Assembly (NCBI RefSeq): GCF_964213995.1
Contig: NW_027590501.1
Location: 62,001-126,000 of the forward strand
Origin: Mustelus asterias
Lineage: Eukaryota
Length of the DNA stretch: 64,000 bases
Direction: 5' to 3'
Part shown: piece by piece, positions 3,469-63,588 of the stretch
Position numbering within the stretch: the first letter of the stretch is position 1
Layout: the number at the start of each line of letters is the position of its first letter
Notes under the pieces: model-generated
What the model saw: only the letters and a program-made list of their open reading frames with translations
Databases searched by the model: none
Told to the model about the DNA's origin: nothing
Made by a program: the position numbers and the translations under genes

Positions 3469-4563
3469 TCACTCGTGAACTCGCTGGTGTCTCAGCAGGT
3501 GGGATGAAACTCTGAATCCCTTCCCACACTGAGAGCAGGTGAATGGCCTCTCCCCAGTGTGAACTCGCTGGTGTCTCTGCAGGTGGGATGACTGAGTGAA
3601 TCCCTTCCCACACTGAGAGCAGGTGAACGGCCTCTCCCCTGTGTGAACTCGCTGGTGTGTCCGCAGATCAGATGAGTTAGTGAATCCCTTCCCACACTGA
3701 GAGCAGATGAATGGTTTCTCCCCAGTGTGAACTCGCTGGTGTATTCGCAGGCTGGATAACAGAATGAATCCCTTCCCACACTGAGAGCAGGTGAACGGCC
3801 TCTCCCTTGTGTGACGTAGCTGGTGTCTCTGCAGGTCGGCTGACTGAGTGAATCTCTTCCCACACTGAGAGCAGGTGAACGGTCTCTCCCCAGTGTGAAC
3901 TCGTTCGTGTGTCCGCAGGATGGATGAGTTCGTGAATCCCTTCCCACACTGAGAACAGTTGAATGGCCTCTCCCCAGTGTGAACTCGTTGGTGTCTCTGC
4001 AGGAGGGATAACAGAATGAATCCCTTCCCACACTGAGAGCAGGTGAACGGCCTCTCTCCTGTGTGAACTTGCTGGTGTTTCTGCAAGCTGGATAACTGAA
4101 TGAATCCCTTCCCACACTGAGAGCAGGTGAATGGTTTCTCCCCAGTGTGAACTCGCTGGTGTATCCGCAGGCTGGATAACAGAATGAATCCTTTCCCACA
4201 CTGAGAGCAGGTGAATGGCCTCTCCCCAGTGTGAACTCGTTCATGTGTCCGCAGGGTGGATAATTGAGTGAATCCCTTCCCACACTGAGAGCAGGTGAAC
4301 GGCCTCTCCCCAGTGTGAACTCGCTGGTGTCTCTGCAGGTCGGATAACTGACTGAATCCCTTCTCACATTGAGAGCAGGAAAATGGCCTCTCTCCAGTGT
4401 GAACTCGCTGGTGTCTCTGCAGGAGGGATAATCGAGTGAATCCCTTCCCACATTGAGAGCAGGTGAATGGTCTCTCCCCAGTGTGGCTGCGTCGATGAGC
4501 TTCCAGCTTAGATGGGGCTCTGTATCCCTTCCCACAGTCCCCACATTTCCATGGTTTCTCCAT
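3469..4563 (-). CDS. Z1: tandem C2H2 zinc-finger protein, 13 fingers, no effector domain
   Basis: 13 CxxC-x12-HxxxH units with TGE[RK]PF linkers. Likely ATG (MEKPWKC, accATGG) at 4563; the ORF track starts at a non-ATG codon at 4599. Confidence 0.9.
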
Positions 4564-5160
4564 GGTGCAGGTGTCCTTACCTCTCTCTTGACTGGACAAT
4601 TAGTTGAAACTTCGCCCACACTCAGAACAAGATTACAGTCTCTCCCCGCTGTGAATGGTGTGATATTTATTCAGACTGTGTAACTGGTTAAAGCTCTTTA
4701 GTCAGTGCATTGGAACACTCTCACTCAAGTGTGGCAGTGTGTTGATGCTTTTTCACTCACACTGACATTTCAAATCTTTTCAAATCGACAGACTGGACAA
4801 TCATTTCTCCTTCTGGATTCAAAGTCCGATGATATTGAGGTCCCAAGGAATATGACTCTGTCACGTCTAGACATGACGTTTGAGATTTCGGCCTGTGATT
4901 CCTCTTTCAATATCCTGTAAAACGAGTTTACAAAAGTCATCAGTGTCAGTACAGCAGAGAAATTCAGAACAGACAATTTCTATGGAACATTCTTGCCTCT
5001 CTCATTCCCCAAAAGCTGTAAATCTCCATCCCACACACTGTCTCCCCATTCTCAGCAGGTCTGGCAGCATCTGTATGGAGAGAAAAGAACTGATGTTTCA
5101 GAGCTTTGACAAAGGGTCATCGAGACAAGAAACATCAGCTCTTGATGTAGGAAGAGAGAT

Positions 5161-5471
5161 TCCTATTCGCTGATTCAGGCAGGCTCCATTGTGACGTCAC
5201 AATGCGGAAGTTGTCCAATGAGCTTCAGATTGAAACTTCCTCTTCTGGACAACATCTGGGAGGAAATCAATGTTTCCCCCTTTCCATTTCTTTTCTCATT
5301 CTGGGGAAATTGGGGACTTGCAGCAACTGAAGGGAGTGAAGTGAATTCGGTCTGTATATTCCACACATTTTTACTCCAGTAATGTAGACATTTATTTGTC
5401 TGGCAGCCTGCATGGAAATTTTCAGCTCTCTGCATCCAGGGCAAGAAGCAGTGAGCATGGATCTGTCAATC
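5161..5471 (+). promoter_or_regulatory. ZNF-type promoter/exon1/exon2 remnant in opposite orientation to Z1
   Basis: 5161-5240 matches the reverse complement of 51570-51650. 5220-5340 matches 34434-34560. 5350-5471 matches 35670-35788. Contains the palindrome cattgtgacgtcacaatg. Confidence 0.7.
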
Positions 5472-5842
5472 ACACATGAGGACGGCCTCAACCGGGATCT
5501 TGGGTTCATGTCACACTATCTGTAACTCACACTGTCTGTAACCCCCACAAATTGCCTGGGCTTGCAAAATCTCACTAACTGTCCTGGCTGGAGACAATAC
5601 ACATCTCTTTAACCTGTGCTTCATCCTCTCTCCACTCACATTGTCTGTACCTTTAAGACTTGATTACCTGTAAAGACTCACATTCCAACCATTATTTTGT
5701 AAATTGAGTTTGTGTCTCTGTGCCCTGTTTGTGAACAGAACTCCCACTCACCTGATGAAGAGCAGCGCTCCAAAATCCTGTGGCTTATGCCAGCAAATTA
5801 ACCTGTTGGATTTTAACCTGGTGTTGTGAGATTACTTACTGT
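5471..5842 (+). mobile_element. Penelope-like element 3' fragment (end of GIY-YIG ORF plus terminal repeat)
   Basis: Homologous to 44838-45197 (THEDGLNRDxGFMSHYL*; aataaacctgttggactttaacctggtgttgt-type terminus). Degenerate hammerhead core at about 5752. Confidence 0.8.
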
Positions 5843-5979
5843 CTGAGGCTGAAACAGGCTGTTCACAACCAGGGTGAAATAGTTCATCCCAATATGAGCT
5901 TCCAACCACGTCCACATCATCATCAAGACCACCTTCATTCAAAGTAATTAATTAATTAACAGTAATGAATCATAAAATA

Positions 5980-6273
5980 CATTGTAGGAGGAGGCCATTC
6001 AGCCCATCGAGCCTGCACCGACAACAATCCCATCCAGGCCCTATCCACATATTTACCTGTTAATCCCCCTGATGCCAAGGGTTAATTTATCATGGCCAAT
6101 CTGTCTAACCTGCACATCTTTGGACTGTGGAAGGAAACCGGAACACCCGGAGGAAACCCACCCAGACACGGGGAGAATGTAGAAACTCTGCACAGACAGC
6201 GACCCGAGGCTGGAATTGAACCCGGGTCCCTGGCGCTGTTAGGCAGCTGCACTAACCACTGCGCCACCGGGCC
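5980..6273 (-). mobile_element. HE1/V-SINE-like tRNA-derived SINE
   Basis: Reverse complement reads ggtggcgcagtggttag (A box) ...ggttcaattcc (B box), the core gggtttcctccgggtg and a CR1-like tail. Confidence 0.85.
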
Positions 6274-6325
6274 ACATGTCAGTGCCATCGCCCGACTCCA
6301 GCCCAGTGTCAGCTCATCTGGAACC

Positions 6326-6489
6326 CTCACCCATTCCATTGTGACATCACACTCTCACCCATTCCATTGTGACGTCACACTCTCACCCATTCCATTGTGA
6401 CATCACACTCTCACCCATTCCATTGTGACCTCACACTCCCACCCATTCCATTGTGACCTCACACTCTCACCCATTCCATTGTGACGTCA
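6326..6489. repeat. 28-bp minisatellite, about 6 copies, each with a CRE-like gtgacNtcac
   Basis: Unit ctcacccattccattgtgac[a/g/c]tcacact at 28-bp spacing. Confidence 0.95.
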
Positions 6490-7090
6490 GGGCTTCACTC
6501 TCCGATCACAATCCCTGCCGGCCTCCCACATGCAGCCTCAATGGCGGCAGTCAGCCCGGGTCTAACACTACAAGCTGCCGCTCCATTTGGTACAAAGGGG
6601 GGGAACCGGGAAGTTCATTTCCGGGGTTTGGGGTTGAACAACATGTTTACAAAGTCTCTCCACCCACCCGCCACATTTATCATTCCTCGCACGCCGCCCT
6701 CTACCTCGTATTGATCTCGCTACCGAGTTAAAACCGTCCATCCGTCGTCATTACCCGCACTGCGCATGCTACAGGCCCCGCCTCTCATTCACTCCGATTG
6801 GTTGGAGGACCAGCCGCTCCCGCTCGGTCCTCCAGTCCGGCCCCCTCTTCCTATTGGTCCGGAGCTGCCGTCAATCAGTGCCCGGGCATTGTGATGTGGA
6901 GCATGCGCAGTGTCATTGCTGTCCTTGCGCTTGTTTGTCCCGGAGAAGCGGAGTCAGCGTTAGGCGGTGGCTGGGAGGATTTGGAAACACTTTGTGGATC
7001 CGCAAACCCTTCAGAATCATTGTCAGCTCCCTGGTTTGCAGCTGCGGGGCTTTTCCCTCCCTCCCTCCCGGGAACAGGCCCAGGTTAACG
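6490..7090 (+). promoter_or_regulatory. CpG-island promoter and putative non-coding exon 1 of Z2
   Basis: CpG-rich. Contains tgcgcatg (NRF1-like), inverted CCAAT boxes, a GC box and YY1-like atggcggc. Candidate donor cag|gttaac at 7083/7084 and acceptor tttacag|g at 7541/7542. Confidence 0.65.
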
Positions 7091-7899
7091 GCCCCATCCT
7101 GGCTCAGCCACTGGAGGATGGTTCACATCAGAGGATGGGGGAGGGGGACAATAAATAAGAGGTTACACTTTGGCCTCAAATCAATGAGGACTCTGATCTC
7201 TGGGAAGGAAGGAAACCCTGGGAGGTGGGCGGGGAGGATTAACAAACACCCGCTGGAGGCCCCAACACCCCCAATAAGACCCATTGGTTTTATTGTCAGT
7301 CTGCAGACAGGAGCTGGAGAACTGAACCCAGACAGAGGAGAGGGAGGGAGAAAACTGGGAGTGGAGGAAAGAAATGGTGAGATGGGTTTGGATTTCAGCG
7401 CAGGGAGGAGGGAGAGTGTGTGGGACGGAGATTTACAGATTTGGGGGAACAAGAAAGGAAAAAATGTTCCAGAAAGACTAGAATTGTTCAGAGTTTCTAT
7501 CCTGTTCTGACAGTGATGACTTTTCTAAACTGTTTTTACAGGATATTCAAAGTGAAGGAATGGCAGACAGAAAACTCAAACCGAACATCACATCTGACAA
7601 AGTCATTCAGTTCCTTCGGAGCTGAATATGATCGGTCTTTGAATATGGAAGGAGCAATATTTGTCTGTTCTGCCTGTGGGCAAAGAAATTAAACATCAGT
7701 GTGACCAGAAAAGCAGCAGGACAAACACACACCCGAGTGAGAGTGTTCCAGTGAACCAACTGTGGAAAGAGCTTTAACCAGTTACACAGCCTGAAAAAAA
7801 ATCACAGTTCACAGCAGGGTGAAACTACGTGTATGTTGTGTGTGTGGATGAGGCTTGAACTGATCATCCAACCTGGAGAAACACAAGGGCACCAGCACC

Positions 7900-9048
7900 A
7901 TGGAGAAACAGTGGAAATGTGTGGATTGTGGGAAAGGAATCAGTTTCCCATCACAACTGGAAGTTCATCAGCGCAGTCACACTGGGGAGAGACCGTTCAC
8001 CTGCTCTGTTTGTGGGAAGGGATTCACCCATTCATACAACCTTCTGACTCACCAACGGGTTCACACTGGGGAGAGGCCGTTCACCTGCCCTGTGTGTGGG
8101 AAGGGATTCACTCGCTCATCCCACATTGTGACACACCAACTTGTTCACACTGATGAGAGACTGTCTCCATGTTCTGACTGTGGGAAGAGTTTTAAATGCA
8201 AAAAAGATCTGCTGACGCACCAACGTATTCACACTGGGGAGAGACCGTTCACCTGCTGTGTGTGTGGGAAAGGATTCATTCAGTCATCCCACTTGCAGAC
8301 ACATCAACTTGTTCACTCTGATAACAAACTTTTTAATTGTTCCCACTGTGAGAAGAGCTTTAAAAATAAAAAAGATCTGCTGACGCACCAATATACTCAC
8401 ACTGGGGAGAGGCCATTCACCTGCTGTGTGTGTGGGAAGGGATTCAGCCATCCATCTGCCCTATTGAACCACCAGAGAATTCACACTAGGGAGAGGCCCT
8501 TCACCTGCTCAGACTGTGGGAAGGGATTCATTAATTCATCCAACCTTCTGATACACCAGCAACTCCACACAGGGGATCGACCGTTCACCTGCTCTGAATG
8601 TGGGAAGGGATTCACCCGTTCATACAACCTTCTGACACAGCAGCAGGTTCACAGTGAGGAGAGGCCATTCACTTGCTCCGTATGTGGGAAGGGATTCACT
8701 CGTTCATCCAACCTATTGAATCACCAGCGAGTTCACACTGGGGAGAGGCCGTTCACCTGCTCCATGTGTGGGAAGGGATTCAGTCAGTCATCCAACCTGC
8801 TGACACATCAGAGAGTTCACAGTGGGGAGAGGCCATTTACCTGCTCTGTCTGTGGGAAGGGATTTTCTCATTTCTCTTATCTTCTGAAACACCAGCGAGT
8901 TCACACTGGGGAGAGGCCGTTCACCTGTAATGTCTGTGGAAAGGGATTTGTTCAGTCATCCCACCTGCTAACACACCGGCGAGTTCACAAACGACTGCAA
9001 GGTTTGGATTCTACACTTATCGATGCTGTTAATCATATCCAGGTCTGA
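7900..9048 (+). CDS. Z2: tandem C2H2 zinc-finger protein, 13 fingers (9th has His>Gln)
   Basis: 382-aa ORF starting accATGG (MEKQWKC) with canonical linkers and a short C-terminal extension. Confidence 0.92.
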
Positions 9049-12569: not shown

Positions 12570-12980
12570 CCGTCACAATGCCCGGCTGATTGACGGCAGC
12601 GTGGACCAATGGGAAGAGGGGGCAGAGCTGGAGGCCCGATCAGGAGCGGTTGGTCCTCCAACCATTAGGAGCAAACGAGGGGCGGGGCCAACTTTGACTC
12701 GAGCATGCGCAGTGTGAGTAAAGGCGATGGAAAACGGTTATTTTGGGCTCGGAAATCTGTTCGAGGTGATTGGCGGTACGGAGAGAGCAATGGATCGTCC
12801 AGGTGGGTGGAAGCGCTGCGTAACCATGTTGTGAGAGTCGCAAAATGCGGAAGAGAGCTTCCCGGACCCAGTTTGCACCGAGCGGGGCTGCAGCTCCTCA
12901 TGTTCGTTTCGGGTTAACGTTCGCCATCTTTATTGGGGGCAATATGCAGCAGTGCGCACGTGTGGCCGCCATGTTTGTAG
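12570..12980. promoter_or_regulatory. CpG-island promoter upstream of Z3
   Basis: Reverse-oriented copy of the 6783-6900 cassette (gattgacggcagc...ccaat...ggtcctccaacc), plus gcatgcgca, YY1-like cgccatctt and gccgccatgtt, and donor-like gg|gttaac. Confidence 0.65.
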
Positions 12981-13692: not shown

Positions 13693-14442
13693 TTGATCAC
13701 CCACGTTGGCAGCAAGTTCAATATCATCATCAGTCACAACCCCCCTGTATCTTCACTAACTGAAACAATCCATTTAAAACATTTTTATCGAGAATGTAGC
13801 CATATTTCTTTTGGACTGGCAGCCTGCATGGAGACTTTCAGCTCTCTGTGTCCAGGACAGGAAACCGTGAGCATGGATCTGTCAATCAGCCTCAATCAGC
13901 ATCTTCAGGAGAATTGGGAGGGTGAATATTAGATACAGCAGAGTGAGAATGGAGGGAGAGTGTGTGGGATGGAGATTCACAGCTTTTGGGGAATGAGAGA
14001 GGAAAGAATGTTCCATGGAAACTAGAATTGTCTGTTCTGAATTTCTATCCTGTACTGACTGTGATGAATTTTGTAAATTGTTTTTACAGGATATTAGAAG
14101 AGGAATCACACTGATAAATCTCAACTATCACATCTCGATCTGACAGAGTCACTCGATTCCTTGGATACTAAATATCCTCAGCCTCTGAATGGGAAGGAGA
14201 AATGTTTGACCGGTCTGTCCACTGCAAGATTTTAAGCAACAGTGTGACTGGAAAAACACCGGGACACAAACACACACCTGAGTGAGAGTGTTCCAGTGCA
14301 CTGACAGTGGAAAGAGCTTTAACCAGTTACACAGCCTGAAAATACATTGCAGCATTCACAGCAAGGAGAGACTGTACACGTGTTCTCTGTGTGGACAAGG
14401 CTTCAAATGATTGACCTGCAATGATACAAGGAGACCGACAAT

Positions 14443-15369
14443 ATGGAAAAACCGTGGAAATGTGAGGACTGTGGGAAGAGATACAAAGCGCCCTCTCTAC
14501 TGGAAGCTCATCGGCGCAGCCACACTGGGGAGAGGCCGTTCACCTGCTGGGTGTGTGGGAAGGGATTCACTGATTCATCCACTCTGCAGAGACACCAGCA
14601 AGTTCACACTGGTGAGAGTGCATTCACCTGCTGTCAGTGTGGGAAGGGATTTACTCAGATATCAAGCCTGCGGACACACCAGCGAGTTCACACTGGGGAG
14701 AGGCCATTCACCTGCTCTCAGTGTGGGAAGGGATTCACTGAGTCATCCAACCTACAGAGACACCAGCGTGTTCACACAGGAGAGAGGCCATTCAGCTGCT
14801 CTGCATGTGGGAAAAGATTCACTCAGTTATCTCAACTGCGGGCACACCAGCGAGTTCACACTGGGGAGAGACCGTTCACCTGCTCTCAGTGTGGGAAGGG
14901 ATTCACCCAGTTATCCAACCTGCAGACACACCAGCGAGATCACACTGGGGAGAGGCCATACAGCTGCTTTCAGTGTGGGAAGGGATTCATTCATTTATCA
15001 AACCTGCAGACACACCAGCAAGTTCACACCGGGGAGAGGCCATTTACCTGCGCCGTGTGTGGGAAGGGATTCACTCGGTTATCCACCCTGCAGTCACACC
15101 AGCGAGTTCACACTGGGGAGAGGCCATTCACCTGCTCTCAGTGTGGAAAGGGATTCACTCAGTTATCTAATCTGCGGAGACACCAGTGAGTTCACTCTCA
15201 AGAGAGGTCGTTCACCTGCCCCGTGTGTGGGAAGGGATTCACTCGGTTATCCACCCTGCAATCACACCAGCGAGTTCACACCGAGGAGAGACCATTCACC
15301 TGCTCTCAGTGTGGGAAGGAGTTCTGTGATTCATCCACCCTGCTGACACACCAACAAGTTCACAAGTGA
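14443..15369 (+). CDS. Z3: C2H2 zinc-finger gene, 8 intact fingers then premature TGA (15187-15189); ancestral array of 11 fingers ends 15369
   Basis: ORF MEKPWKC...RRHQ*. The frame continues past the stop through two more fingers to cac aag tga. Confidence 0.85.
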
Positions 15370-21580: not shown

Positions 21581-23166
21581 TCACTTGTGAACTCACTGGT
21601 GTTTCACCAAGTTTGCTGACTGAGTGAATCCCTTCCCAGTCAGAGCAGGTGACCAGCCTCTGCCTGGTGTGAACTCACTGGTGGGACATTAGTTCCCGAG
21701 AGCTTTTGAAGCTACGCCCACATTTAAAGGGTCTCTCCTGGGTGTGATGATGTTGTGTCTGGGCAGGCTGGATAAGTGAGTAAATCCTTTCGCACACACC
21801 GAGCAGGTGAATGGTTTCTCCCCGGTGTGAACTCACTGGTGTTTCAGCAGTGTTGATGATATTCTAAACCTCCTTGAACAGTGAGAGCAGCTGAACGGCC
21901 TCTCCCCGGTGTGAATGTGCTCGGGGATCATCAGTTCCTGAGAGCTTTTGAAGCCGGCTTCTCGGGCAGAGCATTTAAAGGGTCTCTCCTTGGAGTGAGT
22001 GGCTTTGTGTTTCTGCAGGCTGGATGACTGAGTGAATCCCTTCCCACACACAGAGCAGGTGAACGGTCTTTCCCCAGTGTGAACTCGCTGATGTTCCCAC
22101 AGGCTGGATGACATTTTAAATCTCTTTGTGCAGTGAGAGCAGCTGAACGGTCTCTCCTCAGTGTGAATGCGCTGGTGGGACACCAGGTCCTGAGAGCTTT
22201 TGAATCCGCTCCCACAGTCAGAGCATTTAAACCGTCTCTCATTAGTGTGAGTGACTTTGTGTCTGCGCAGGTGGGATGAAGTAGTGAATCCCTTCCCACA
22301 CACCGAGCAGGTGAACGGTCTCTCCCCAGTGTGAACTCGCCGGTGCACTCGCAGGTTGGATGATGTTCTAAACCTCTTTGTGCAGTGAGAGCAGCTGAAC
22401 GGTCTATCCTCAGTGTGAGTGCGCTGGTGGGACATCAGATCCTGAGAGTCTTTGAAGCCACTCCCACAGTCAGAGCATTTAAATGGTCTCTCATTGGTGT
22501 GAGTTGTTTTGTGTTTCTGCAAGCTGGATGAAGTTGTGAATCCCTTCCCACACACACAGCAGGTGACGGCCTTTCCCCGGTGTGAACTCGCTGGTGTGTC
22601 TGCAGGTTGGATGATGTTCTAAACCTCTTTGTGCAGTGAGAGCAGCTGAACGGTCTCTCCTCAGTGTGAATGCGCTGGTGGTCCCTAAGTACCTGAGAGC
22701 TTTTGAATCTGCTCCCACAGTCAGAGCATTTAAATGGTCTCTCATTGGTGTGAGTGGCTTTGTGTTTCTGCAGGCTGGATGACTGAATGAATCCCTTCCC
22801 ACACACAGAGCAGGTGAATGGTCTCTCCCCAGTGTGAACTCGCTGGTGTATCTGCAGGTTGGATGAAGTTCTAAATGTCTTTGAGCAGTGAGAGCAGCTG
22901 AACGGTCTCTCCTCAGTGTGAATGCGCTGGTGGGACATCAGATACTGAGAGCTTTTAAAACCACTCCCACAGTCACAGCATTTAAATGGTCTCTCATTGG
23001 TGTGAGTGAGATTGTGTTTCTGCAGGCTGGAAAACTGAGTGAATCCCTTCCCACACACAGAGCAGGTGAATGGCCTCTCCCCAGTGTGACTGCGTTTATG
23101 AATTTCCAGCTCAGATGGGAACCCGAATCTCTTCCCACAGTCCCCACATTTGCACGGTTTCTCCAT
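21581..23166 (-). pseudogene. Z4: long C2H2 array; 7 intact fingers, 1-bp frameshift at about 22566, further fingers, then degenerate tail with TGA stops
   Basis: ORFs 22435-23202 and 21833-22555 join at aggccgtcacc versus consensus aggccgttcacc. ATG (MEKPCKC) at 23166; ancestral stop at 21581-21583. May still encode a 7-finger protein. Confidence 0.8.
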
Positions 23167-23619
23167 GGTGCGGGTGTCCTTGTGACTCTCCAGGTTAAAC
23201 AATCAGTTAAATCTCACACAGAACACGGGTACAGTCTCTCCCCGCTGTGAATGCTGCGATGCATTTTCAGGCTGTGTAACTGGCTCTTTCCACACTCAGT
23301 GCACTGGAACACTCTCAGTCGGGTGTGTGTGTCTCAATGCATTTCTAGTCACAGCGATGTTTACAATCTTTTGAACCCAATAGGCCAAACAAACATTTCT
23401 CCTGCTAGATTCAAAGGTCGATGATATTTAGGTCCCAAGAAATCGAGTCACTCTGTCAGATCTCGATGTGATGTTGGAGATTTCTGTATGATTTCTCCTT
23501 GTCTAATATCCTGTAAGTCAATTTAGAAAAAAACATCGCAATTCAGAATACGATCGAAATTCAAATCTACATTTCTAGTTTATGGAGCATTCATTAAAAA
23601 CACAGTCATGGAGCATTAA

Positions 23620-41005: not shown

Positions 41006-41054
41006 ATTGTCTAAATGACTGGACTGACAATGTGTGGAATGTACAGACTGGGGG

Positions 41055-42357: not shown

Positions 42358-43161
42358 GGACAGAATTATGACAGTGTGGTTATGTGTTAAATATTGGATG
42401 GTTCTATAATAAAGTACATTTATTATTATTTCTTGTCTTGTAATATAGTACTGTAGCTATGTTATATATTTCCAGTCAGAGCCATTATAGCACAGGGGGA
42501 GTCCATTGGACAATTCAAGGCCCTGCTGACTCTCTGTCGAGCAATTCTGTCAGTCTGGAGAGGGTCCCATTCTGTACTCCTGCAGCACCCATCCAATCTC
42601 ATTGAGAAATTACTGACCATCTCTGCTTGACTACCCTCACAGGCAGCAAGTTCAGGAGCATGACTAATCACAACCCCCATATCTTAACCAACTTACAGAT
42701 TTAGGGGAATGAGTGGGGAAAGAATGTTCTATAGAAACTAGAATTATCTGTTCTGAATTTTGATCCTGTAGTGACTGTGATGTCTGCTGCAAACTCCTTT
42801 TATAGGATATCAGAAGGTTAGGATCCATTGACAGAATCCCAAATCATGCGCCACGTCAAGATTTGACAGTCGCTCAATTCATCTGGACCTGAATACCATC
42901 GGCCTTTGCATCTAGAAGGAGAAATGTTTCTCTATTCTGTCTGCTTCAGAAGGCGTTAAATGTCAGTGTGACTGGAAAAGCACCAACGCACACACACACC
43001 TGAGTGAGAGTGTTCCAGTGCACTGACTGTGGAAAGAGCTTTAACCAGTTATATAGCCTGAAAATACATCACAGCTTTCACAGTGGGCAGAGACTGTACC
43101 CGTGTTCTGTGTGAGATTTAACTGATTGTTTAACCTGGAGAGTCACAAGGACACCCGAACC

Positions 43162-44004
43162 ATGGAGAAACCATGGAAATGTGGGGACTGTGGGAAGGGA
43201 TTCAGATTCCCATCTCGGCTGGAAATTCATCGACGTATTCACACTGAGGAGTGGCCATTCACCTGCTCTGTGTGTGGCATGGGATTCACTTATTTCTCCA
43301 AGCTGTTGAACCACAAAGTCACTCACACTAATGAGAGACCCTTTAAATGCTCCGACTGTGGGAGCAGCTTCAAAAGGGCGCAGGAACTGCTGAGACACGA
43401 GCGAATTCACACTGAGGAGAAACCATTCAGCTGCTCTCAATGCTCAAAGAGATTTAGATCAACATCCAACCTGCAGGAACACCAGCGAGTTCACACCAGT
43501 GAGAGACCCTTTAAATGCTCCGACTGTGGGAGTGAATTCAAAAGGTCTCAGGATCTGAGGGACCACCAGCACATTCACACCGAGGAGAGACCATTCAGCT
43601 GCTCTCACTGCACAAAGAGGTTTAGAACGTCATCCCACCTGCAGAGACACCAGCGAATTCACACTGGGGAGAAACCATTCACCTGCTCTGTGTGTGGGAA
43701 GGGATTCACTGATTCATTCAACCTGCGGGAACACCAGCGAACTCACATTGGGGAGAGGCCATTTATCTGCTGTGTGTGTGGAAAGGGATTCACCCGGGCA
43801 TCCAGCCTGCTGACACACCAGCGGGTTTACACCGGGGAGGGGCTGTTTACCTGCTCTCACTGTGGGAAGGGATTCACTCAGTTATCCAGACTGCAGGTAC
43901 ACGTTCGAGTTCACACTGGGGAGAGACCATTCACCTGCTCTGTATGTGGAAAGGGATTCACTCAGTCAACATTCCTGCAGAGACACCAGCGAGTTCACAA
44001 GTGA
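43162..44004 (+). CDS. Z7: tandem C2H2 zinc-finger protein, 10 fingers (8th His>Tyr)
   Basis: accATGG MEKPWKC at 43162; intact to cac aag tga. Confidence 0.9.
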
Positions 44005-48100: not shown

Positions 48101-50439
48101 TCGATTAACAGTTAATAGAGAAGGGTTCACTTTAACAATTGAACAGACTTCTCTCCATCCCTCTCAGACCAGGACATGAAGTGATGGCTCTGAAAACATG
48201 GATAACTTGTAAAACCAACAGCTCTCCACACCTCTCTGTAAACATCTCTCCCTCCACCTCTCTCTACCAAATTGCCTTCTCAAGACCACTTTTTTATACT
48301 TTAAAAATGTCGAAAGCCTATCTTAGCCAATTCCCATAAATCTTCAATTATAAACTAAGATAGACACGAGTTTTCAGATGATTTGAAAAGAAATGAACTG
48401 TCTGCTGAAAGGGTTAACTTTTCTACAGAACCTAAAGGGATGGGGAGTGAGCAGAAAAAAATTGGCCCACAATAATCCCACTTTACACAAGTATAAAAAT
48501 CAAAACAAACTCGATTGTAAACTTCAGCTCTTAATTTTTTTGTTATATTCCACAACCTAATTATTTCTATTTGATCAGTTTTGTTAGGGATGGGTAACTT
48601 CTGTTCTTTATAAACTGCTTCACTCATTTTGTTGATTCCCCATGAACTCGGAGAATCAGAACCCAGATTTTATCATCCTTATCCTTTTTCTCCCTTTGCC
48701 ACCACTCCCTCTGTTTTGCGGGAGGGTCGTGGGGATTCCAATCAGAACGAATCATTTTATCATAAAAGTAAAATACTGCGGATGCTGGAATCTGAAACAA
48801 CAACAGAAAATGCTGGAAAATCTCAGCAGGTCTGACAGTATCTGTGGAGACAGAATAGAGCCAATGTTTAAAGTATGGATGACCCTTTACAAGAGCTGTT
48901 ATGAAGTGTCTTCCAGACTCGAAACGTTGGCTGTATTCTCTAATAATTTTATCGATAAGTTTCTTGTTCTTAGTTTCCAAATAGCAGGTAAGAGACCTAT
49001 CCGGTCCTCACTCGAGCTCTGAGTGTTTCACTGGCCATGCTTGGGTCAGTTTATAACCATTAGAATCTACTCTGAGGTCTGCTTTTCAGTCCAGTGCTAT
49101 TTGGAGTATACCGTTACTTCACCGACTAACGGGTCACATGTCCCTCACAGTTCTTATCACAAATTTGGGATAAAATAATTTAAACAATGCCTGAGAACGC
49201 TTTTTAACTTCTTAACCAACTATCTGCCACTGTTTGTTGATTGATCAGACCCCCTTTTTACAGATTCAGGAATCTCAGCCGCTGAACACCAGCCGGTCCT
49301 GGAATAAGTTTAATTCTAACTCATTCCGAGTAAATATTCTCACCAGGTCCTGTGTCGGGGCCCTGCTAAGCAGCTTTAATGGTCCGTGATTGCAGAAACT
49401 GAGCAGTCACAGGAATGTGGTCAAGATAGTCCAGTCCCATAATGCCTCACATTCAATCTGCAGTCCTTCAATTATAACAGAATATGTGGCTGTATGTAGC
49501 TGCCTCGGCCATGGTCAACCCCAACACTGCCTTCTTGAACTGCTGCAATGCCTGAGGTGTAAGTACACCCACAGTGCTGTTAGGGAGGGATTTCCAGCTA
49601 CACATTCCAGACTTTCACTGGACTGTAGATGGATACCAGATTGATATATTCCATTCAACCACTCCCAAGGTGAGTTATTCCAATTCCTTTATTGTCCAGG
49701 ACAATATATTCACAATATCTTTAAAACAGAAATTAAACATTCCCATTTGATTTGAGACAGTAACATATTCTGTTCGTTTGTTCTTTATTGTCAATGTCAG
49801 GCTGGGGTTGTTCCCCTTGGAGCAAAGGAGGTTGAGGGGAGATTTGATAGAGGTGGACAAGATTCTGACAGGTTTAAATAAGGTGGACGAAGAAAAGCTG
49901 TTCCCATTAGCTGATGGGACATGGACGAGGGGGGACACAGATTTAAAGTTTCAGGTCAGAGATGTAGGGAGGGATGTGAGGGAGAATATTTTGATGCAGC
50001 GAATGGTAATGACCTGGAACTCACTGCCTACGAGGATGGAGGAAATGGAGACAATAAACAATTACAAAGGAAATGAGATGGGCATCTGGGGGAGTTTCAA
50101 ACAGAAATGCTGACTAAATATCTCTCAATTTCCTCACACCCGGTCACTCTGAAATTTAAAACAAGGTATTCGCAACAAGACTCAAAGAACATCAGCTCAC
50201 TGGAGGCAAAGTTGTGAGACCGGCCAGTCCAGCAGAAAGAAACCCTCCGACCCTCCCCATTGACCAACTGTGAGAATGAACAAAATGCAGTCCTGGATGT
50301 AATTGAGAGCAGAAACAATAACAGCAGAATCCAACCCCTGTGAACTTGTTGGTGCCTCAGCAGCTGTGATGAAATTCTGAACACTTTTTATACACTGAGC
50401 AGGTGGACAGTTTCTCCCCAGTGTAACTTCACTGATGTC

Positions 50440-51342
50440 TCAACAGGTGGGATAACTGAGTGAATTCCTTCCCACACTCAGAGCAGGTGAATGGTCTCTC
50501 CCCATGTGAATTCGCTGGTGTCTCTGCAGGTTGGATAACTGACTGAAACCCTTCCCACACTGAGAGCAGGTAAATGGCCTCTCCCCAGTGTGAACTCGCT
50601 GGTGTCTCCGCAGGTGGGATGACTGAGTGAATCTCTTCCCACACTGTGAGCAGGTGAACGGCCTCTCTCCAGTGTGAATGTGCTGGTGTTTCTGCTGGGT
50701 GGATAAGTGACTGAAACCCTTCCCACACTGAGAGCAGGTAAATGGCCTCTCCCCAGTGTGAACTCGCTGGTGTGTCCGCAGCTCGGATGACCGAGTGAAT
50801 CTCTTCCCACACTGAGAGCAGGTGAATGGCCTCTCCCCAGTGTGAACTCGCTGGTGTGTCCGCAGGTCGGATGAACGAGTAAATCCCTTCCCACACTGAG
50901 AGCAGGTGAATGGCCTCTCCCCGGTGTGAATGTGCTGATGTGTCCGCAGGTCGGATGACCGAGTGAATCTCTTCCCACAACGAGAGCAGATGAATGGCCT
51001 CTCCCCAGTGTGAACTCGCTGGTGTATCTGCAGGTTGGAAAACTGACTGAACCCCTTCCCACACCGAGAGCAGATAAACAGCCTCTCCCCAGTGTGAATT
51101 CGCTGGTGTCTCTGCAAAGTGGATAACACAGTGAATCCCTTTCCACACTGAGAGCAGGTGAACGGTCTCTCTCCGGTGTGAACTCGCTTGTGTGACTGCA
51201 GGCTGGGCAACAGAGCGAATCCCTCCCCACACTGAAAGCAGATGAATGGCCGCTCCCCAGTGTGGCTGCGCCGATGAGCATCCAGCAGAGAGGGGGCTCT
51301 GTATCTCTTTCCACAGTCCGCACATTTCCATGGTTTCTCCAT
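50440..51342 (-). CDS. Z8: C2H2 zinc-finger protein, 10 intact fingers then frameshift; two dead fingers to about 50339
   Basis: accATGG MEKPWKC at 51342. Frame shifts after HQRIH at about 50503. Confidence 0.85.
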
Positions 51343-51559
51343 GGTGCAGGTGTCCTTGCCTCTCCCTTGGGTGGCCAATCAGTTGAAGCCTTGTCCACAC
51401 ACGGAACACGGGTGCAGTCTCTCCCTGCTGTGAATGGTGTGATATTTATTCAGGCTGTGTAACTGGTTAAAGCTCTTTAGTCCGTGCTCTGGAACAATCT
51501 CACTCGGGTGTGGCAGTGTGTTGCTGCTTTTCCACTCACTGATGGCCGAAGTCTTTTCA

Positions 51560-51890
51560 AATCCAAGTGGAAGCTTTAATCTGAAGCTCAGTGGCCAACT
51601 TCCGCATTGAGACGTCACAATGGAGCGCTGCCGGAATCAGCCAATAGGAATTACTCGGCTCCGCAGTGACGTTGCGGGGTTCCATGGCGCAGGCCCGGCT
51701 CGCGGACCCGGGAGCCCCACCCATTGTTCCTCCTCCCCCTGCACCTCCTCCAGCCAAGGTTTCCAGGCAACCGGCTGGCGGCTCCGGCCAGAGCGAGAAG
51801 CCGCTCGGTGATCTCCCCCTCCCCCCTCTCTCTCCGGCGGCTGCTGCTCCAAAAAGAGATCGAGAGCGGACCGCTGGCGGCAGCCGCACT
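51560..51890. promoter_or_regulatory. Bidirectional CpG island between Z8 (-) and Z9 (+)
   Basis: Very CpG-rich, with CCAAT, CRE-like gacgtca and ETS-like cttccg. Confidence 0.7.
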
Positions 51891-52088
51891 GCGCCTGCTC
51901 CGGACAGCTGGGCTCAGCAGCGCTCTCTGCGCCTGCTCCGGACAGCTCGGCTCAGCAGCGCTCTCTGCGCCTGCTCCGGACAGCTGGGCTCAGCAGCGCT
52001 CTCTGCGCCTGCTCCGGACAGCTCGGCTCAGCCGCGCTCTCTGCGCCTGCTCCGGACAGCTCGGCTCAGCAGCACTCTCTGCGCCTGC
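51889..52088. repeat. 38-bp GC-rich minisatellite, about 5.3 copies
   Basis: Unit ctgcgcctgctccggacagct[g/c]ggctcagcagcgctct starting at 51889, 51927, 51965, 52003, 52041 and 52079. Confidence 0.95.
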
Positions 52089-52198
52089 GTGCTGGGCTGC
52101 CAGCTGAGGGAGTGGGGGAGGGGACTTTGCAAAATCTTCCCATCATTTTCTTCCAAGTCCCGCAGTTTGATTTGAAACAGAACAGCTTCTGTTTGTAG

Positions 52199-52480
52199 CT
52201 TCACCACAGACTCCAACTTCACACACAGACTCAAACTTCACCACAGACTCAAACTTCACACACAGACTCAAACTTCACCACAGACTCAAACTTCACACAC
52301 AGACTCCAACTTCACACACAGACTCCAACTTCACCACAGACTCAAACTTCACCACAGACTCAAACTTCAGACACAGACTCAAACTTCAGACACAGACTCA
52401 AACTTCACCACAGACTCAAACTTCAGACACAGACTCAAACTTCAGACACAGACTCAAACTTCACCACAGACTCAAACTTC
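52199..52480. repeat. 18/19-bp minisatellite, about 15 copies
   Basis: Unit cttca[c/ca/ga]cacagactc[a/c]aa. Confidence 0.95.
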
Positions 52481-53040: not shown

Positions 53041-54079
53041 ATATGGTGCATAATGGGTATGTTATTTATGGATTTGTATTACAGTTGATTTTGTTTAATT
53101 CCAGAATAGTATTGTAACTACACTGTATATTTTCCAGTCAAAGAGTCATCAGAGCACAAGATAAATCAATTCAGCAGCTTGAGTCCGTGCCCAGTCTCTG
53201 TCGGGGAATCCACTCAGTGCCATTTTTCCTCGATATCCCTGTTCCCCAGCACGTTTAATTCCTTCAAGTGCCCGACCAATTTTATTTTGAAATCACTGGT
53301 CGTCTCCACTTCCACCACTCTCATCATCAGTGAGTTCCAGAACATGATTGCTTGCTCCCTAAGTCAAGTTCTTCCGCACCCATCTGTATCTCTAATCATG
53401 TAATAGAGTTCTGAATATTGCATACATTTTTAGTCCACTAAATATGCTAATTTTTTATCTGCTTAGACACAAGCCTGTGTGAAGATTTCAGGAATATGTG
53501 TCCTGTACATGAAACAGTCAGCACGGATCTGTCGATTAGGATGAATCAGCACCCTCAGGACAATGTCTATTTCAGGTCCAGCAAAGTGAGAATGGAGGGA
53601 GAGTGTTTGGGATGGAGATTTACAAATTTTCAAGAATGAGAGGAAAGAATGTTCCACAGAAACTAGAATTGTCTGTTCTCAGTTTTTATCCTGTACTGAC
53701 AGCAATGATTTTTGTGAATTTCTTTCACAGGCTATTAGAAGGGGAGAATTTTCAGACACAAATCTCAACAAACATGACGTTAGGATCTGACAGAGTCACC
53801 CAATTATTCAGGATCTGAATACCATCGGCATTTGAAACGAGAATGGAAAATGTTTGTCTGTCCCTTCAAACTGTTTAAACATCAGTGTGACTGGAAAATC
53901 ACTGAGACACATCCACTCGAGTGAGAGTATTCCAGTGAACTGACTGTGGAAAGAGCTTTAACCAGTTACACAGCCTGGAAAAGATTGAAGGATTCACAGT
54001 GAGGAGAAAGACCATGTATGTGTTATCTGTGGGGTCAAATCTTCATCTGAACCTGGAGATGTACAAAGACACTCAGACC

Positions 54080-55125
54080 ATGGAAATGTAGGGACTGTGG
54101 GAAGGGATTCAATTGTCCCTCGAAGCTGGAAACCCTTCGATGCAGCCACACTGTGGAGACACCGTTCACCTGCTCTGAGTTTGGAAGGGGATTTCGTGAT
54201 TCATCCACCCTGAGGAATCACCAGCGACTTCACATCAGGGAGAGGCCATTCACCTGCTCTGAGTGTGGGAAGAAATTCAGCGATTCGTCTGCCCTGCTGA
54301 CACACCAGCGGGTTCACAACGGGGAGAGACCATTCACCTGTTGTGTGTGTGGAAAGGGATTCACTCAGTCATCTACCCTGCAGAATCACCAGCGATTTCA
54401 CACGGGTGAGGGACTGTCCCCCTGCTCAGAGCGTGGGAAGGGATTCACTCACTCATCCCTCCCGCTGACACACCAACCCATTCACACTGGGCCGAGGCCA
54501 TTCATCTGCTCCGAGTGTGGGAAGGGATTCACTCACTCATCCCTCCCGCTGACACACCAACGCATTCACACTGGGCCGAGGCCATTCATCTGCTCCGAGT
54601 GTGGGAAGGGATTCACTCAATTATCTAGTCTGCTGAGACACAAACGATTACATACTGGGGAAAGGCCATTCATCTGATGTGTGTGTGGGAAGTGACTCAG
54701 TCAATCATCCAGTCTGCTGGAATACTGAGGCTCCTCCCCCAATAAGAAACCTGTTCAATGCTCTGACTGTGGGAGCTGCTTTAAAACCTGAGCCTACCTG
54801 AGGGTCGACCAGCGCATTCACACTGAGGAGACCCCGTTCAGGCGCTCTCACTGTGCAAAGAGGTTTAGAACATCATCTGACCTACTGAAACATCAGGGAA
54901 TTCACACTGGGGAGAGACCCTGATAATTCCCACTCACTTTCAGCGATTTCTCATAAAACCTACCAGATTGGAAGCTTCTGCCTGAAATTTTATTTTCCCT
55001 TAGTTTCCAAACTGAGACCATTCACCTGCTCAGTGTGTGGGAAAGGATTCACTTGTTCACCCAAGCTGCTGAGGCACCATGGCAGTCACACCCATTAGTG
55101 ACCTTTTGGATGCTCTGACTGTGGC
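54080..55125 (+). pseudogene. Z9: C2H2 zinc-finger pseudogene
   Basis: Start collapsed (accatggaaatgtag). ORF 54153-54677 has damaged fingers, followed by several stops and frameshifts. Confidence 0.85.
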
Positions 55126-61419: not shown

Positions 61420-61592
61420 TCAAAGATGTGCAGGTTAGGTTGATTGGCCATACTAAATTGATCCGAGTGTCAGGGGGATTAGCAGGGTAAATGTGAGTTT
61501 ACGGGAGGAGGGCCTGGGTGGGATTGTGGTCGGAACAGGCTCGATGGGCTGAATGGCCTCCTTCTATACTGGAGGGATTCTATTCTATTCTC
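61420..61592 (+). mobile_element. HE1-like SINE 3' half
   Basis: aaagatgtgcaggttaggttgattggcca...gatgggctgaatggcctccttct. Confidence 0.8.
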
Positions 61593-61597
61593 TATAA

Positions 61598-62585
61598 AAT
61601 TACAGCACAGAAACAAGCTCTTTGGCCCTCCAAGCCTGTAGCAACCATGCTGCCCGTCTGAACTAAAACCCCCTACCTTTCCGGGGACCATATCCCTCTA
61701 TTCCTATGCTATTCATATATTTGTCAAGACACATCTTAAAGTCACTATCGTATCTGCTTCCACTACCTTCCCCGGCAACGAGTTCCAGGCACCCACCACC
61801 CTCTGTGTAAAGAACCTGCCTTGTACATCTCCTTTAAAAAGCTTCTGATTATCCACTCTGTCCATGCCCCTCATAATCTTGTGGACTTCTATCAGGTTGC
61901 CCTCCTCAACCTCCGTTGTTCCAGTGAGAACAAACCAAGTTTCTCCAACTTCTCCTCATAGCTAATGCCCTCCACACCAGGCAACATCCTGATAAATATT
62001 TTCCGTACCCTCTCCAAAGCCTCCACATCCTTCTGGTAGTGTGGTGACCAGAATTGAACACTAGATTCCAAGTGCGGTTTAACTAAGGTTCTATAAAGCT
62101 GCAACATGACTTGCCAATTTTTAAACTCAATGCCCCGGCCGATGAATGCAAGCATGCCGTATGCCTTCTTGACTATCTTCCCCACCTGCATTGCCACTTT
62201 CAATGACCTGTGTACCTGTACACCTGGATCCCTCTGCCTATCAATACTCTTAAGGGTTCTGCTATTTACTGTACATATCCCATCTGTATTAGACCTTCCA
62301 AAATGCATTACCTCACATTTGTCCAGATTAAACTTAATCTGCCATCTCTTCGCCCAAGTCTCCAACTGATCTATGTCCTGCTGTATCCTCTGCCGGTCCC
62401 CATCACTATCTGCAATTCCACTAATCTTTGTGTCGTCCACAAACTTACCAATAAAACCAGTTACATTTTCCTCCAAATCATTTACATATATTACAAACAG
62501 CAAAAGACCCAGCACTGAACCCTGAGGAATGTCACTTGTCACAGCCCTCCATTCAGAAATGTACCTTTGCACTGCCAACCTCTGT
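61598..62585 (-). mobile_element. 5'-truncated CR1
   Basis: ORF 61892-62578 has IPQGSVLG, FVDDTK and HLESSVQFWSP. Confidence 0.9.
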
Positions 62586-62829
62586 TTTCTTCTGACTAAA
62601 TATCTCGAAACTTCCTAACACCCTGTCACTCTGTGATCCTTGTGACATTTGAAACCAGGTATTCACAAAAAGACTCAAAGAGCATCAGCCCACTGGAGGC
62701 TGAGACCAGCCAGTCCAGCACAAAGAAACCCTCCGACCCTTCCCATTGACCAACTGTGAGAATGAACAAAATGCAGTGCTGGAGGCAACTGAGAGCAGAA
62801 ACAATAACAGCAGAATCCAACCCCTGTCA

Positions 62830-63588
62830 TCACTCGTGAACTTGCTGGTGTCTCAGCAGCTCGGATGAAACTCTGAAACGCTTTCCACACTGAGAGCAGG
62901 TGAATGGCCTCTCCCCTGTGTGAACTCGCTGGTGTGTCTGCAGGTCAGATGAGTTCGTAAATCCCTTCCCACACTGAGAGCAGATGAATGGTCTCTCCCC
63001 AGTATGAACTCGCTGGTGTATCTGCAGGTGGGATGACCGAATGAATCCCTTCCCACACTGAGAGCAGGTGAACGGCCTCTCTCCTGTGTGACGTAGCTGG
63101 TGTCTCTGCAGGTCGGCTGACTGAGTGAATTCTTGCCCACACTGAGAGCAGATGAACGGTCTTTCCCCAATGTGAACCCGTTCGTGCGTCCGCAGGTTGG
63201 ATGAGTTCATGAATCCCTTCCCACACTGAGAACAGGTGAATGGTCTCTCCCCAGTGTGAACTCGTTGGTGTCTCTGCAGGCTGAATGACCGAGTGAATCC
63301 CTCTCCACACTGAGAGCAGGTGAACGGCCTCTCCCCAGTGTGAACTCGCTGGTGTGACTGCAGGTTGGATAACCGAGTGAATCCCTCCCCACACTGCGAG
63401 CAGGTGAATGGCCTCTCCCCTGTGTGACGTAGCTGGTGTGATTGCAGGTTGGATACCCGAGTGAATCCCTTCCCACACTGAGAGCAGATGAACGGCCTCT
63501 CCCCAGTGTGGCTGCGCCGATGATCTTCCAGCAGGGATGGGTATCTGTATCCCTTCCCACAGTCCACACATTTCCATGGTTTCTCCAT
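62830..63588 (-). CDS. Z10: tandem C2H2 zinc-finger protein, 9 fingers; close paralog of Z1
   Basis: accATGG MEKPWKC at 63588; intact ORF. Upstream 63645-64000 is nearly identical to 4620-4975. Confidence 0.9.

What the first reader, a model, noticed from the sequence alone, without database searches (positions are those of the whole stretch)
3469..63588. Fast-turnover cluster of effector-less 'finger-only' ZNF genes in TE-dense DNA
Seen: ten loci in 64 kb on both strands, with about 9-19 finger units each, at all stages of decay. The proteins are essentially pure arrays with variable recognition helices on a near-invariant scaffold. Established: tetrapod KRAB-ZNF and cyprinid FiNZ-ZNF clusters evolve this way and repress TEs through an N-terminal domain. 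Inference: this may be an independent chondrichthyan TE-recognition system that works without a fused effector, by steric blocking or by recruitment through the distinctive first finger (WKCxDCGK..xPSxLExHRRSH), which stays similar across paralogs.
Basis: partly seen in the sequence, partly recalled or inferred. Interest (0 to 1): 0.72.

Follow-up and report, generated by a model that had tools for sequence, protein, structure and literature searches.

The report
Shark finger-only zinc-finger gene cluster
Ten neighbouring genes in a shark-type genome encode proteins made only of zinc fingers whose DNA-touching residues change unusually fast; they look like shortened descendants of longer genes, and whether they silence mobile DNA is untested.

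Summary
Confirmed: ten C2H2 arrays, 122 finger units (110 intact); six uninterrupted, three truncated, one pseudogene. They belong to an elasmobranch-wide family marked by an atypical 'WKC..PS.LE' finger. The lack of an effector is well supported: 9 of 10 loci share a splice acceptor followed by a leader of dead spacer and fingers with 3-10 in-frame stops, translation starts at an ATG inside an old linker, and no KRAB/SCAN/BTB was found. One RNA-like contig splices a short promoter exon onto this acceptor. Helix positions -1, +3, +6 show omega about 2.5; +2 does not. The finger-only state looks secondary: four ray genera have relatives with an open leader and an N-terminal PxVxL-type motif (HP1-binding consensus); the first exon serving two loci here may be its dead copy (post hoc, suggestive only). 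TE targeting and a finger-1 cofactor remain untested, and repeat density is not above a catshark's genome average. Effector-less, high-turnover clusters are published for hemipterans (ZF271-like), shark ZNF counts are tabulated in Wells 2023, and this scan noted similar clusters on other DNA. New variant of a known kind.

The parts
3469..4563 (-). Z1 ORF, 364 aa, 13 fingers, uninterrupted; starts MEKPWKC
4564..4914 (-). Z1 leader: shared acceptor at 4914, then 351 nt of decayed spacer and fingers, 9 stops in frame with the ATG
4915..6704 (-). Z1 intron, 1790 nt, GT..AG; same length as a contig joint in run X1
6651..7100 (.). CpG island P1 between head-to-head Z1 and Z2 (NRF1-like, CCAAT motifs; motif names recalled); Z1 first exon ends at 6705 on -
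6900..7376 (+). Putative first exon of Z2; candidate donors after 7083 and 7376; contigs of 4 of 4 runs cover parts of it; 5' part may be a dead copy of the ray motif exon
7542..7899 (+). Z2 acceptor and leader, 358 nt, 6 in-frame stops
7900..9048 (+). Z2 ORF, 382 aa, 13 units (12 intact)
12573..12770 (+). Promoter-type copy P2 (inverted relative to P1), candidate first exon of Z3
14090..14442 (+). Z3 acceptor and leader, 353 nt, 6 in-frame stops; a contig of run X3 begins matching at 14087 after 103 unmatched letters
14443..15369 (+). Z3 array, 11 units; premature stop at 15189 leaves 248 aa with 8 fingers
21640..23166 (-). Z4 array, 17 units with an internal three-finger (252 bp) repeat; frameshift after finger 7 leaves 243 aa
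23167..23510 (-). Z4 acceptor (23510) and leader, 344 nt, 4 in-frame stops
23601..24100 (.). CpG island P3 between head-to-head Z4 and Z5; 23629-23928 is 94% identical to 6775-7080; candidate GC donor after 23626 on -
26866..27047 (+). Z5 homologous acceptor and 182 nt leader, 3 in-frame stops
27048..28589 (+). Z5 ORF, 513 aa, 16 intact fingers; other subtype, lacks the WKC finger
32101..32450 (.). CpG island P4, promoter-type copy upstream of Z6
35991..36333 (+). Z6 acceptor and leader, 343 nt, 5 in-frame stops
36334..37344 (+). Z6 ORF, 336 aa, 12 fingers; mosaic (leader closest to Z4/Z7, 3' flank 97% to Z1)
41051..41450 (.). CpG island upstream of Z7 (second promoter type)
42806..43161 (+). 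Z7 acceptor and leader, 356 nt, 6 in-frame stops; one dead finger still matches Pfam zf-C2H2
43162..44004 (+). Z7 ORF, 280 aa, 10 units (9 intact)
50337..51342 (-). Z8 array, 11 units; frameshift after finger 10 leaves 300 aa; acceptor missing, leader abuts the CpG island
51501..52200 (.). CpG island between head-to-head Z8 and Z9
53731..55110 (+). Z9 pseudogene: acceptor at 53731, ATG lost, 5 of 10 units intact, stops and an interruption
62830..63588 (-). Z10 ORF, 252 aa, 9 fingers; recent duplicate of Z1
63589..63939 (-). Z10 acceptor (63939) and leader, 351 nt, 10 in-frame stops; first exon lies beyond the window

Best explanation
This is one cluster of a large elasmobranch family of tandem C2H2 genes that evolves by birth and death. 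Each gene is transcribed from a CpG-island promoter (three head-to-head pairs), splices a short first exon onto a shared acceptor, and is translated from an ATG that sits in a former inter-finger linker, giving a finger-only protein (gene anatomy shown; splicing shown for one Z1-like transcript; translation inferred). The state is secondary: the 5' leader is a dead spacer plus about three dead fingers, which are open in some shark and ray relatives (shown). Unequal crossing-over and conversion shuffle fingers and gene ends (mosaicism shown; mechanism inferred), and selection diversifies helix positions -1, +3, +6 (shown by codon model), so the proteins are sequence-specific DNA binders chasing changing targets. 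The targets are most likely repeats or TEs, by analogy with other metazoan ZNF expansions (inferred, about 55%). With no effector domain, output is by occupancy of the site (about 35%) or by a cofactor bound to the conserved atypical first finger (about 35%); neither is shown.
For: Acceptor in 9 of 10 loci with 3-10 in-frame stops before the ATG and only 6-25 open codons upstream of it. No KRAB, SCAN, BTB, ZAD or SET hit among 313 upstream stop-to-stop frames of 36 aa or more; a KRAB profile scored at most 3.7 bits in all six frames of the window and under 0 in 28 of 28 elasmobranch proteins, while 162 held-out proteins scored over 20. Contig joint of 1790 nt equal to the GT..AG intron 6704-4915. 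Codon model on 96 fingers: omega 2.5 at -1/+3/+6 (p 2e-15 with shared synonymous rate; 1.8, p 0.004 with own rate); this triple ranks 1 of 560 in a hold-out control; Z1 versus Z10, 16 of 63 contact-codon bases differ against 28 of 420 elsewhere, leader 4.3%. 3' flanks 90-97% identical among Z1/Z3/Z6/Z8/Z10 while most leaders are 76-86%. First finger: Pro+1 with Glu/Asp+5 in 8 of 8 window copies and 24 of 26 other elasmobranch copies, against 0 of 96 and 1 of 272 other fingers. Precedents: TE-ZNF correlation independent of accessory domain (PMC10547256); a single C2H2 finger recruiting an HP1 protein (PMC9531945); TE-bound SCAN-ZNFs acting without H3K9me3 (10.1101/2025.03.03.638093).
Against: No target, binding or repression data. 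Repeat density is not above a catshark's average. The splice evidence is one contig with 26 letters on the short side, in 1 of 4 runs whose RNA status is a guess, at 90% likeness (it may be a paralogue); the tool placed the cut 3 bases off and showed 15 of 254 joints. Weak YAG sites lie within the open codons upstream of the ATG in Z1, Z2 and Z5, so a rare in-frame splice is not excluded. The codon model assumes one tree for 69-nt units that recombine, and the zero omega at zinc ligands is circular because only intact fingers were used. Other surface positions have omega near 1, so constraint is weak. Finger 1 is 75-90% identical at DNA level among paralogues against 75-86% for most leaders, so part of its similarity is shared descent, and its -1 residue has drifted here (A, F, V, Y) from the Tyr of 23 of 26 relatives. 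4 of 10 loci are damaged and the eight leaders counted carry 3-6 upstream ATGs. In hemipterans the comparable family did not track repeat content.
Confidence: 0.58

Rival explanations
1. Mostly neutral amplification: the 84-bp units behave like a coding minisatellite, copied and homogenised by recombination, most genes are barely translated, and helix variability is relaxed constraint plus conversion.
For: 4 of 10 loci damaged; 3-6 upstream ATGs per leader; mosaic ends; several non-contact positions at omega near 1; an earlier AI note read a similar shared stop as plain inheritance (unchecked).
Against: Exactly -1, +3 and +6 exceed omega 1; Gly, Lys, Phe and Leu scaffold positions are at 0.07-0.34; six ORFs of 252-513 codons stay open; promoters, acceptor and Kozak context are kept.
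Confidence: 0.14
2. The proteins are real, diversifying DNA binders, but the targets are not TEs (satellites, host promoters, other ZNF genes, recombination or insulator sites).
For: KZNFs often bind satellites, promoters and other KZNFs (PMC10547256 discussion); hemipteran ZF271-like expansion does not correlate with repeat content; no local TE enrichment shown.
Against: Across sharks and rays ZNF ORF counts tend to rise with retroelement ORF counts in the 8 rows seen (475/20,008 in Callorhinchus to 3586/242,270 in Scyliorhinus canicula), though not tested statistically here.
Confidence: 0.22
3. An unrecognised effector exon is spliced in frame through another acceptor close to the ATG, so the real proteins are not finger-only.
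For: FiNZ and KRAB genes have this two-exon plan; FiNZ was not seen among Pfam results and I had no FiNZ sequence to test; ray relatives have a coding N-terminus; NCBI shark models sometimes splice just upstream of the ATG.
Against: No YAG site in the open stretch is shared: none in Z3, Z4, Z7, Z8, Z10; the upstream peptides in those NCBI models are unrelated to each other and often join neighbouring genes; no conserved coding block upstream apart from promoters and repeats; the observed joint uses the far acceptor.
Confidence: 0.06

Closest known systems
Hemipteran ZF271-like / APEZ expansions (Panfilio et al. 2019, PMC6444547; passages read)
   Same: Finger-only proteins, tandem clusters, pseudogenes, high turnover, no KAP1 partner, TE role unproven.
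   Different: Insect and independent; here a vertebrate lineage, with a traceable loss of the N-terminus, a conserved atypical first finger and measured omega>1 at contact sites.
Tetrapod KRAB-ZNF clusters
   Same: Clustered birth-and-death genes, whole array in one terminal exon, HTGE(K/R)P linkers, diversifying -1/+3/+6.
   Different: No KRAB here; KRAB families reported absent from cartilaginous fishes (PMC8455134, passage); tetrapod hits to Z2 are 38-53% identical against 56-64% for three of four elasmobranch hits.
Cyprinid FiNZ-ZNF (Wells et al. 2023, PMC10547256; passages, sections 4 and 10, supplementary data 1 rows read)
   Same: Lineage-specific expansion, two-exon plan, positive selection on the fingers.
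   Different: FiNZ exon is coding and in frame; here stops block any fusion at the shared acceptor. The paper's main text has 0 hits for 'shark' or 'cartilaginous' but tabulates shark ZNF ORF counts.
Elasmobranch NCBI 'zinc finger protein 271/850/239-like' gene models (Heterodontus, Carcharodon, Cetorhinus, Mustelus, Pristiophorus; rays Rhinoraja, Amblyraja, Hemitrygon, Mobula, Pristis)
   Same: Same WKC finger and same leader sequence; this is the family.
   Different: Automatic names only. Some keep an open leader, and one model in each of four ray genera has an N-terminal PRVVLRRL motif that is absent from the window's frames.
Kipferl ZnF4-Rhino (PMC9531945, passages) and PxVxL HP1 ligands (PMC13021124, passages)
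   Same: Show that one C2H2 finger, or a short PxVxL motif, can recruit an HP1 protein without KRAB/TRIM28.
   Different: No homology tested or claimed; precedent for mechanism only.

Membership tests
KRAB-ZNF | N-terminal KRAB-A domain exon in frame with the array | tested here: not met
   0 of 313 upstream frames hit Pfam KRAB; own profile best 3.7 bits in window with 162 positive controls over 20 bits; leader stops
KRAB-ZNF | Single terminal exon with tandem C2H2 array, clustered, birth and death | tested here: met
KRAB-ZNF | Diversifying selection at helix contact positions | tested here: met
   -1, +3, +6 yes; +2 no
KRAB-ZNF | TRIM28 recruitment and TE repression | not testable with these tools
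   needs ChIP, pull-down or knockdown
FiNZ-ZNF | 28-aa acidic FiNZ exon fused in frame | tested here: inconclusive
   No FiNZ sequence or profile was available to me; in-frame fusion at the shared acceptor is excluded by stops; frames under 36 aa were not scanned
FiNZ-ZNF | Cyprinid lineage | tested here: not met
   closest relatives are sharks and rays
SCAN-, BTB-, ZAD- or PR/SET-ZNF | The respective N-terminal domain | tested here: not met
   no such Pfam hit in 313 upstream frames; no SCAN or BTB in the precomputed Pfam lists of 15 of 15 named elasmobranch hits
ZF271-like / APEZ type (works-like class) | No domain besides the array; tandem clusters; pseudogenes | tested here: met
   description
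ZF271-like / APEZ type (works-like class) | Descent from the hemipteran subfamily | not tested
   no tree with insect members; independent origin assumed from lineage
Elasmobranch WKC-finger family (defined here) | WKC finger with Pro+1 and acidic +5, and the shared leader | tested here: met
   8 of 10 loci have the intact finger, 9 of 10 the acceptor and leader; leader aligns to Heterodontus and Pristiophorus models
Ray PRVVLRRL subtype | Intact N-terminal motif exon | tested here: not met
   no intact copy in six frames; a dead copy is possible

The most novel reading that the evidence does not exclude
Elasmobranchs run a KRAB/TRIM28-independent, ZNF-based TE-silencing system of over a thousand genes. 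Its older form recruits HP1 directly through a short N-terminal PxVxL exon, still seen in rays; a shark subfamily gained a start codon inside a linker, let that exon and the first fingers die, and now works through its conserved atypical first finger as a built-in cofactor-binding module.
Probability: 0.17. Interest if true: 0.82.

Novelty: new variant of a known kind. Interest (0 to 1): 0.5.

Why it matters
Sharks have TE-rich genomes, 700-3600 multi-finger ORFs in the six shark genomes seen, and no KRAB genes, and I found no paper that characterises these genes in 10 searches of an open-access library. This window shows that at least one branch makes finger-only proteins under diversifying selection, and it points to two small, directly testable modules: the conserved first finger and the PxVxL motif of ray relatives. 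Either would bear on how vertebrates silenced TEs outside the KRAB/TRIM28 lineage and on whether a tandem ZNF array needs an effector at all. If neither binds anything, the cluster is one more lineage-specific ZNF expansion.

Tried and rejected
No whole genome is held for this window, so copy number and clustering elsewhere were not measured. Rfam: 0 matches. The exact sequences of Z1, Z2, Z6, Z7 and Z10 are not in the protein collection (5 of 5). Search with the dead-leader pieces gave 1 hit among 139 candidates, a spurious frame from an unnamed contig. Run search: no RNA holder listed on record; the four runs laid are RNA by guess; depth was not used. The metagenome scan with an acceptor-region motif gave 4 loci, none similar to the window and none with a C2H2 finger: chance matches. 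Atlas searches gave only generic C2H2 clusters; PDB search gave generic fingers and nothing specific to finger 1. The first pairing test of selection was biased because pairs were chosen without the contact codons; it was replaced. The idea that the Z2/Z4 first exon is a dead ray motif exon failed two tests (profile 0.4 bits against 2.9-9.9 for 40 shuffled windows; frameshift-aware 10 of 150 and 30 of 150 shuffles reach the score) and passed only a post hoc donor-anchored test. A similar stretch in Heterodontus P0174 and a teleost motif in P0026 scored below 0 bits. Pairwise values of 60% or 100% involving the Z8 intron and Z2-Z6 3' flank are alignment artefacts and were ignored. A search for ZNF512-SUV39H1 found 0 papers, so that recalled precedent is not used. 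No structure or complex prediction was run: no partner sequence was available. Binding-motif prediction was not attempted: no TE library or recognition model here, and such predictions are unreliable (PMC4592553, passage).


Full report
Observation. A six-frame scan finds ten C2H2 arrays between 3469 and 63588, four on the minus and six on the plus strand; I call them Z1-Z10. A relaxed scan gives 122 finger units, 110 intact, 9-17 per locus. Six arrays are uninterrupted (Z1 364 aa, Z2 382, Z5 513, Z6 336, Z7 280, Z10 252), Z3 has a premature stop, Z4 and Z8 a frameshift, and Z9 is a pseudogene. Outside the gene units, 45% of 47,480 bases repeat within the window by blastn and 69% adding tblastx; two frames hit reverse transcriptase. 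The catshark genome is 68% TE (PMC11979771, passage), so this is not shown to be an enrichment.

Gene anatomy. Nine of ten loci share a splice acceptor 343-358 nt upstream of the array start (182 nt in Z5); Z8 has lost it and its leader abuts a CpG island. The leader is a decayed spacer and about three decayed fingers, with 3-10 stops in frame with the ATG and only 6-25 open codons before it. Nothing spliced to this acceptor can be fused to the array. The ATG is in ACCATGG context in 7 of 9 loci that have one and occupies a linker position: relatives read T-G-E-K-P, T-T-E-K-P or T-M-E-K-P there. Five CpG islands were found, three between head-to-head pairs (Z1/Z2, Z4/Z5, Z8/Z9); a promoter-type segment recurs four times.

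Effector search. None of 313 stop-to-stop frames of 36 aa or more on the sense strand upstream of Z1-Z9 hits KRAB, SCAN, BTB, ZAD or SET in Pfam; Z10's upstream DNA is outside the window. A KRAB profile built from 36 fetched proteins scores at most 3.7 bits on the window and under 0 on 28 of 28 elasmobranch proteins, while 162 held-out proteins exceed 20. FiNZ could not be tested by profile. Weak alternative YAG sites exist in the open stretch of Z1, Z2 and Z5 and just at its edge in Z6, but none is shared.

Transcription. Eighteen of 20 listed runs hold part of 3300-9200; none is on record as RNA. I laid 4 of the 20 on 3200-16100 at 90% likeness. Run X1 has a joint skipping 1790 bases, reported at 4917-6708; three bases lower this is exactly a GT..AG intron from 6704 to the acceptor at 4914. 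It is one contig, 26 letters on the short side, possibly from a paralogue, and 15 of 254 joints were shown. A contig of X3 starts matching at 14087, at the Z3 acceptor, after 103 unmatched letters. Contigs of all four runs cover parts of 6800-7470. The Z1 first exon is short and yields only small upstream frames. This is modest evidence for spliced, effector-less transcripts and none for protein.

Selection. On 96 intact fingers (26 of 122 units dropped: damaged, from Z9, or behind a stop or frameshift) a codon model gives omega 2.5 for -1/+3/+6 (LRT p 2e-15 with a shared synonymous rate; 1.8, p 0.004 with a free rate), singly 2.6, 2.2 and 2.9; +2 is 0.67; scaffold Gly, Lys, Phe, Leu are 0.07-0.34. 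The zero at zinc ligands is circular. A hold-out control ranks this triple 1 of 560. Between the recent duplicates Z1 and Z10 (leader 4.3% diverged), 16 of 63 contact-codon bases differ against 28 of 420 elsewhere in seven hand-paired fingers (Fisher p 3e-5). Recombination among 69-nt units can inflate such tests.

Turnover. The 200 nt after the stop are 90-97% identical among Z1, Z3, Z6, Z8 and Z10, whereas their leaders are 76-86% identical except Z1/Z10 at 96%. Z6 joins a Z4/Z7-like front to a Z1-like end, and Z4 has an internal three-finger repeat. This mosaicism is what unequal crossing-over and conversion produce (inference).

Family and first finger. The best-identity relatives are elasmobranch gene models, and every fetched protein that matched the first-finger pattern was named as shark or ray (15 of 15 among 356). 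Pro at +1 with an acidic +5 occurs in 8 of 8 window first fingers and 24 of 26 from other taxa, against 0 of 96 and 1 of 272 other fingers and 11 of 5269 in the remaining fetched proteins. Many of the 26 came from a search with the window's own finger, but the five from rays found by a leader-only query mostly agree. Position -1 is Tyr in 23 of 26 relatives and always hydrophobic here, unlike the Arg/Gln/Asn/Asp/His of most other fingers. So this finger is under a different constraint, which fits a protein-binding or capping role but does not show one. In several relatives it is the second finger.

Secondary loss. Pristiophorus and Heterodontus models have the leader open. One model each from Rhinoraja, Hemitrygon, Mobula and Pristis carries, before an open leader and the same finger, a conserved PRVVLRRL motif with no Pfam match. 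It fits PxVxL, the HP1 chromoshadow-binding consensus (PMC13021124, passage); such a short motif can arise by chance, binding is untested, and these four may be orthologues of one gene. The window has no intact copy. The promoter-arm exon serving Z2 and Z4 resembles a dead copy by eye; two unanchored tests were not significant, and a test anchored at a candidate phase-2 donor gave 1 of 600 shuffles for the Z4 arm and 19 of 600 for the Z2 arm, with six other candidates at 7-96 of 150. Donor and junction were chosen after seeing the likeness, and the two arms are 94% identical, so this is a lead of about even odds.

How it most likely works. Finger-only, sequence-specific DNA binders, reshuffled by recombination and diversified at base contacts, probably tracking repeats or TEs, acting by occupancy or through a partner of finger 1. 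Shown: anatomy, absence of known effectors, selection pattern, family range. Inferred: translation, targets, repression. Rivals are non-TE targets, near-neutral amplification and a hidden in-frame exon.

Comparison with the known. Wells et al. (PMC10547256; passages, sections 4 and 10, supplementary data 1 rows) report a TE-ZNF correlation independent of accessory domains and list 475-3586 ZNF ORFs for eight chondrichthyan genomes seen, without discussing them; two of its supplements were too large to read and four others were not opened, and they may bear on sharks. The whale shark paper notes absence of KRAB families (PMC8455134, passages). The catshark paper mentions zinc-finger clusters of recent duplicates on two chromosomes. 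Teleost KRAB-like and FiNZ proteins may use TRIM33 (PMC11603059, passages). Effector-less clusters with pseudogenes are described in hemipterans (PMC6444547, passages). Loss of effector domains in mammalian ZNFs is the subject of PMC2443715 (search listing only). Ten searches found no description of this family, but the library lacks most subscription papers.

Verdict. Real, correctly observed, and a new variant of a known kind. The finger-only state and the selection signal are well supported; the TE-defence function is an analogy. Interest 0.5.

Noticed in passing
window 6775-7080 and 23629-23928: Two promoter segments are 94% identical over 307 bp although the leaders of the genes they serve (Z2, Z4) are 79% identical; the match ends at the candidate donors. 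Recent conversion or strong constraint.
   Followed up: partly
leaders of Z1-Z4, Z6, Z7, Z9, Z10, about +103 to +121: An upstream ATG at the same place in 8 of 8 leaders counted opens a short frame, in most copies ended by shared stops; it may be an older start codon and may damp translation of the array.
   Followed up: partly
window 6326-6489: 28-bp tandem repeat (5.9 copies, 95% matches) beside the Z1/Z2 promoter; two units contain TGACGTCA, also found at 5192.
   Followed up: no
window 51889-52088 and 52199-52481: 38-bp and 37/56-bp tandem repeats in and beside the CpG island between Z8 and Z9.
   Followed up: no
window 26160-26250: ARAGORN calls a tRNA-Ala; it lies in a repeat shared with 28654-29005 and is probably a tRNA-derived SINE head. 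Rfam gave no match.
   Followed up: no
window 5965-6275, 16767-17089, 17530-17870, 26536-26830, 30618-31022, 31213-31553, 31837-32064, 34760-35075, 40019-40368, 61418-61588: About a dozen copies of one roughly 330-bp SINE-like repeat at 72-95% identity, very deep in all four runs laid.
   Followed up: no
window 1138-2368, 20321-21489, 38159-39257, 59689-60435, 61593-62614, 44487-44891: Fragments of LINE-type reverse transcriptase (Pfam RVT_1 in two frames); 44487-44891 looks like a Penelope-type endonuclease fragment from recall, with no Pfam hit.
   Followed up: no
window 52876-53040: 165-bp self-complementary stretch (89%), with partial copies at 5741-5842, 24543-24632 and 45097-45198; a possible short inverted-repeat element.
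   Followed up: no
proteins P0122, P0156, P0166, P0174, P0183, P0191, P0208 (Heterodontus): Public gene models join neighbouring family members and repeat fragments through false introns, so database N-termini of this family are unreliable.
   Followed up: partly
protein P0026 (teleost Aldrovandia): A ZNF with a P-R-V-L-I-H-R-L stretch reminiscent of the ray motif; scored -1.4 bits against the ray profile, so not supported.
   Followed up: partly
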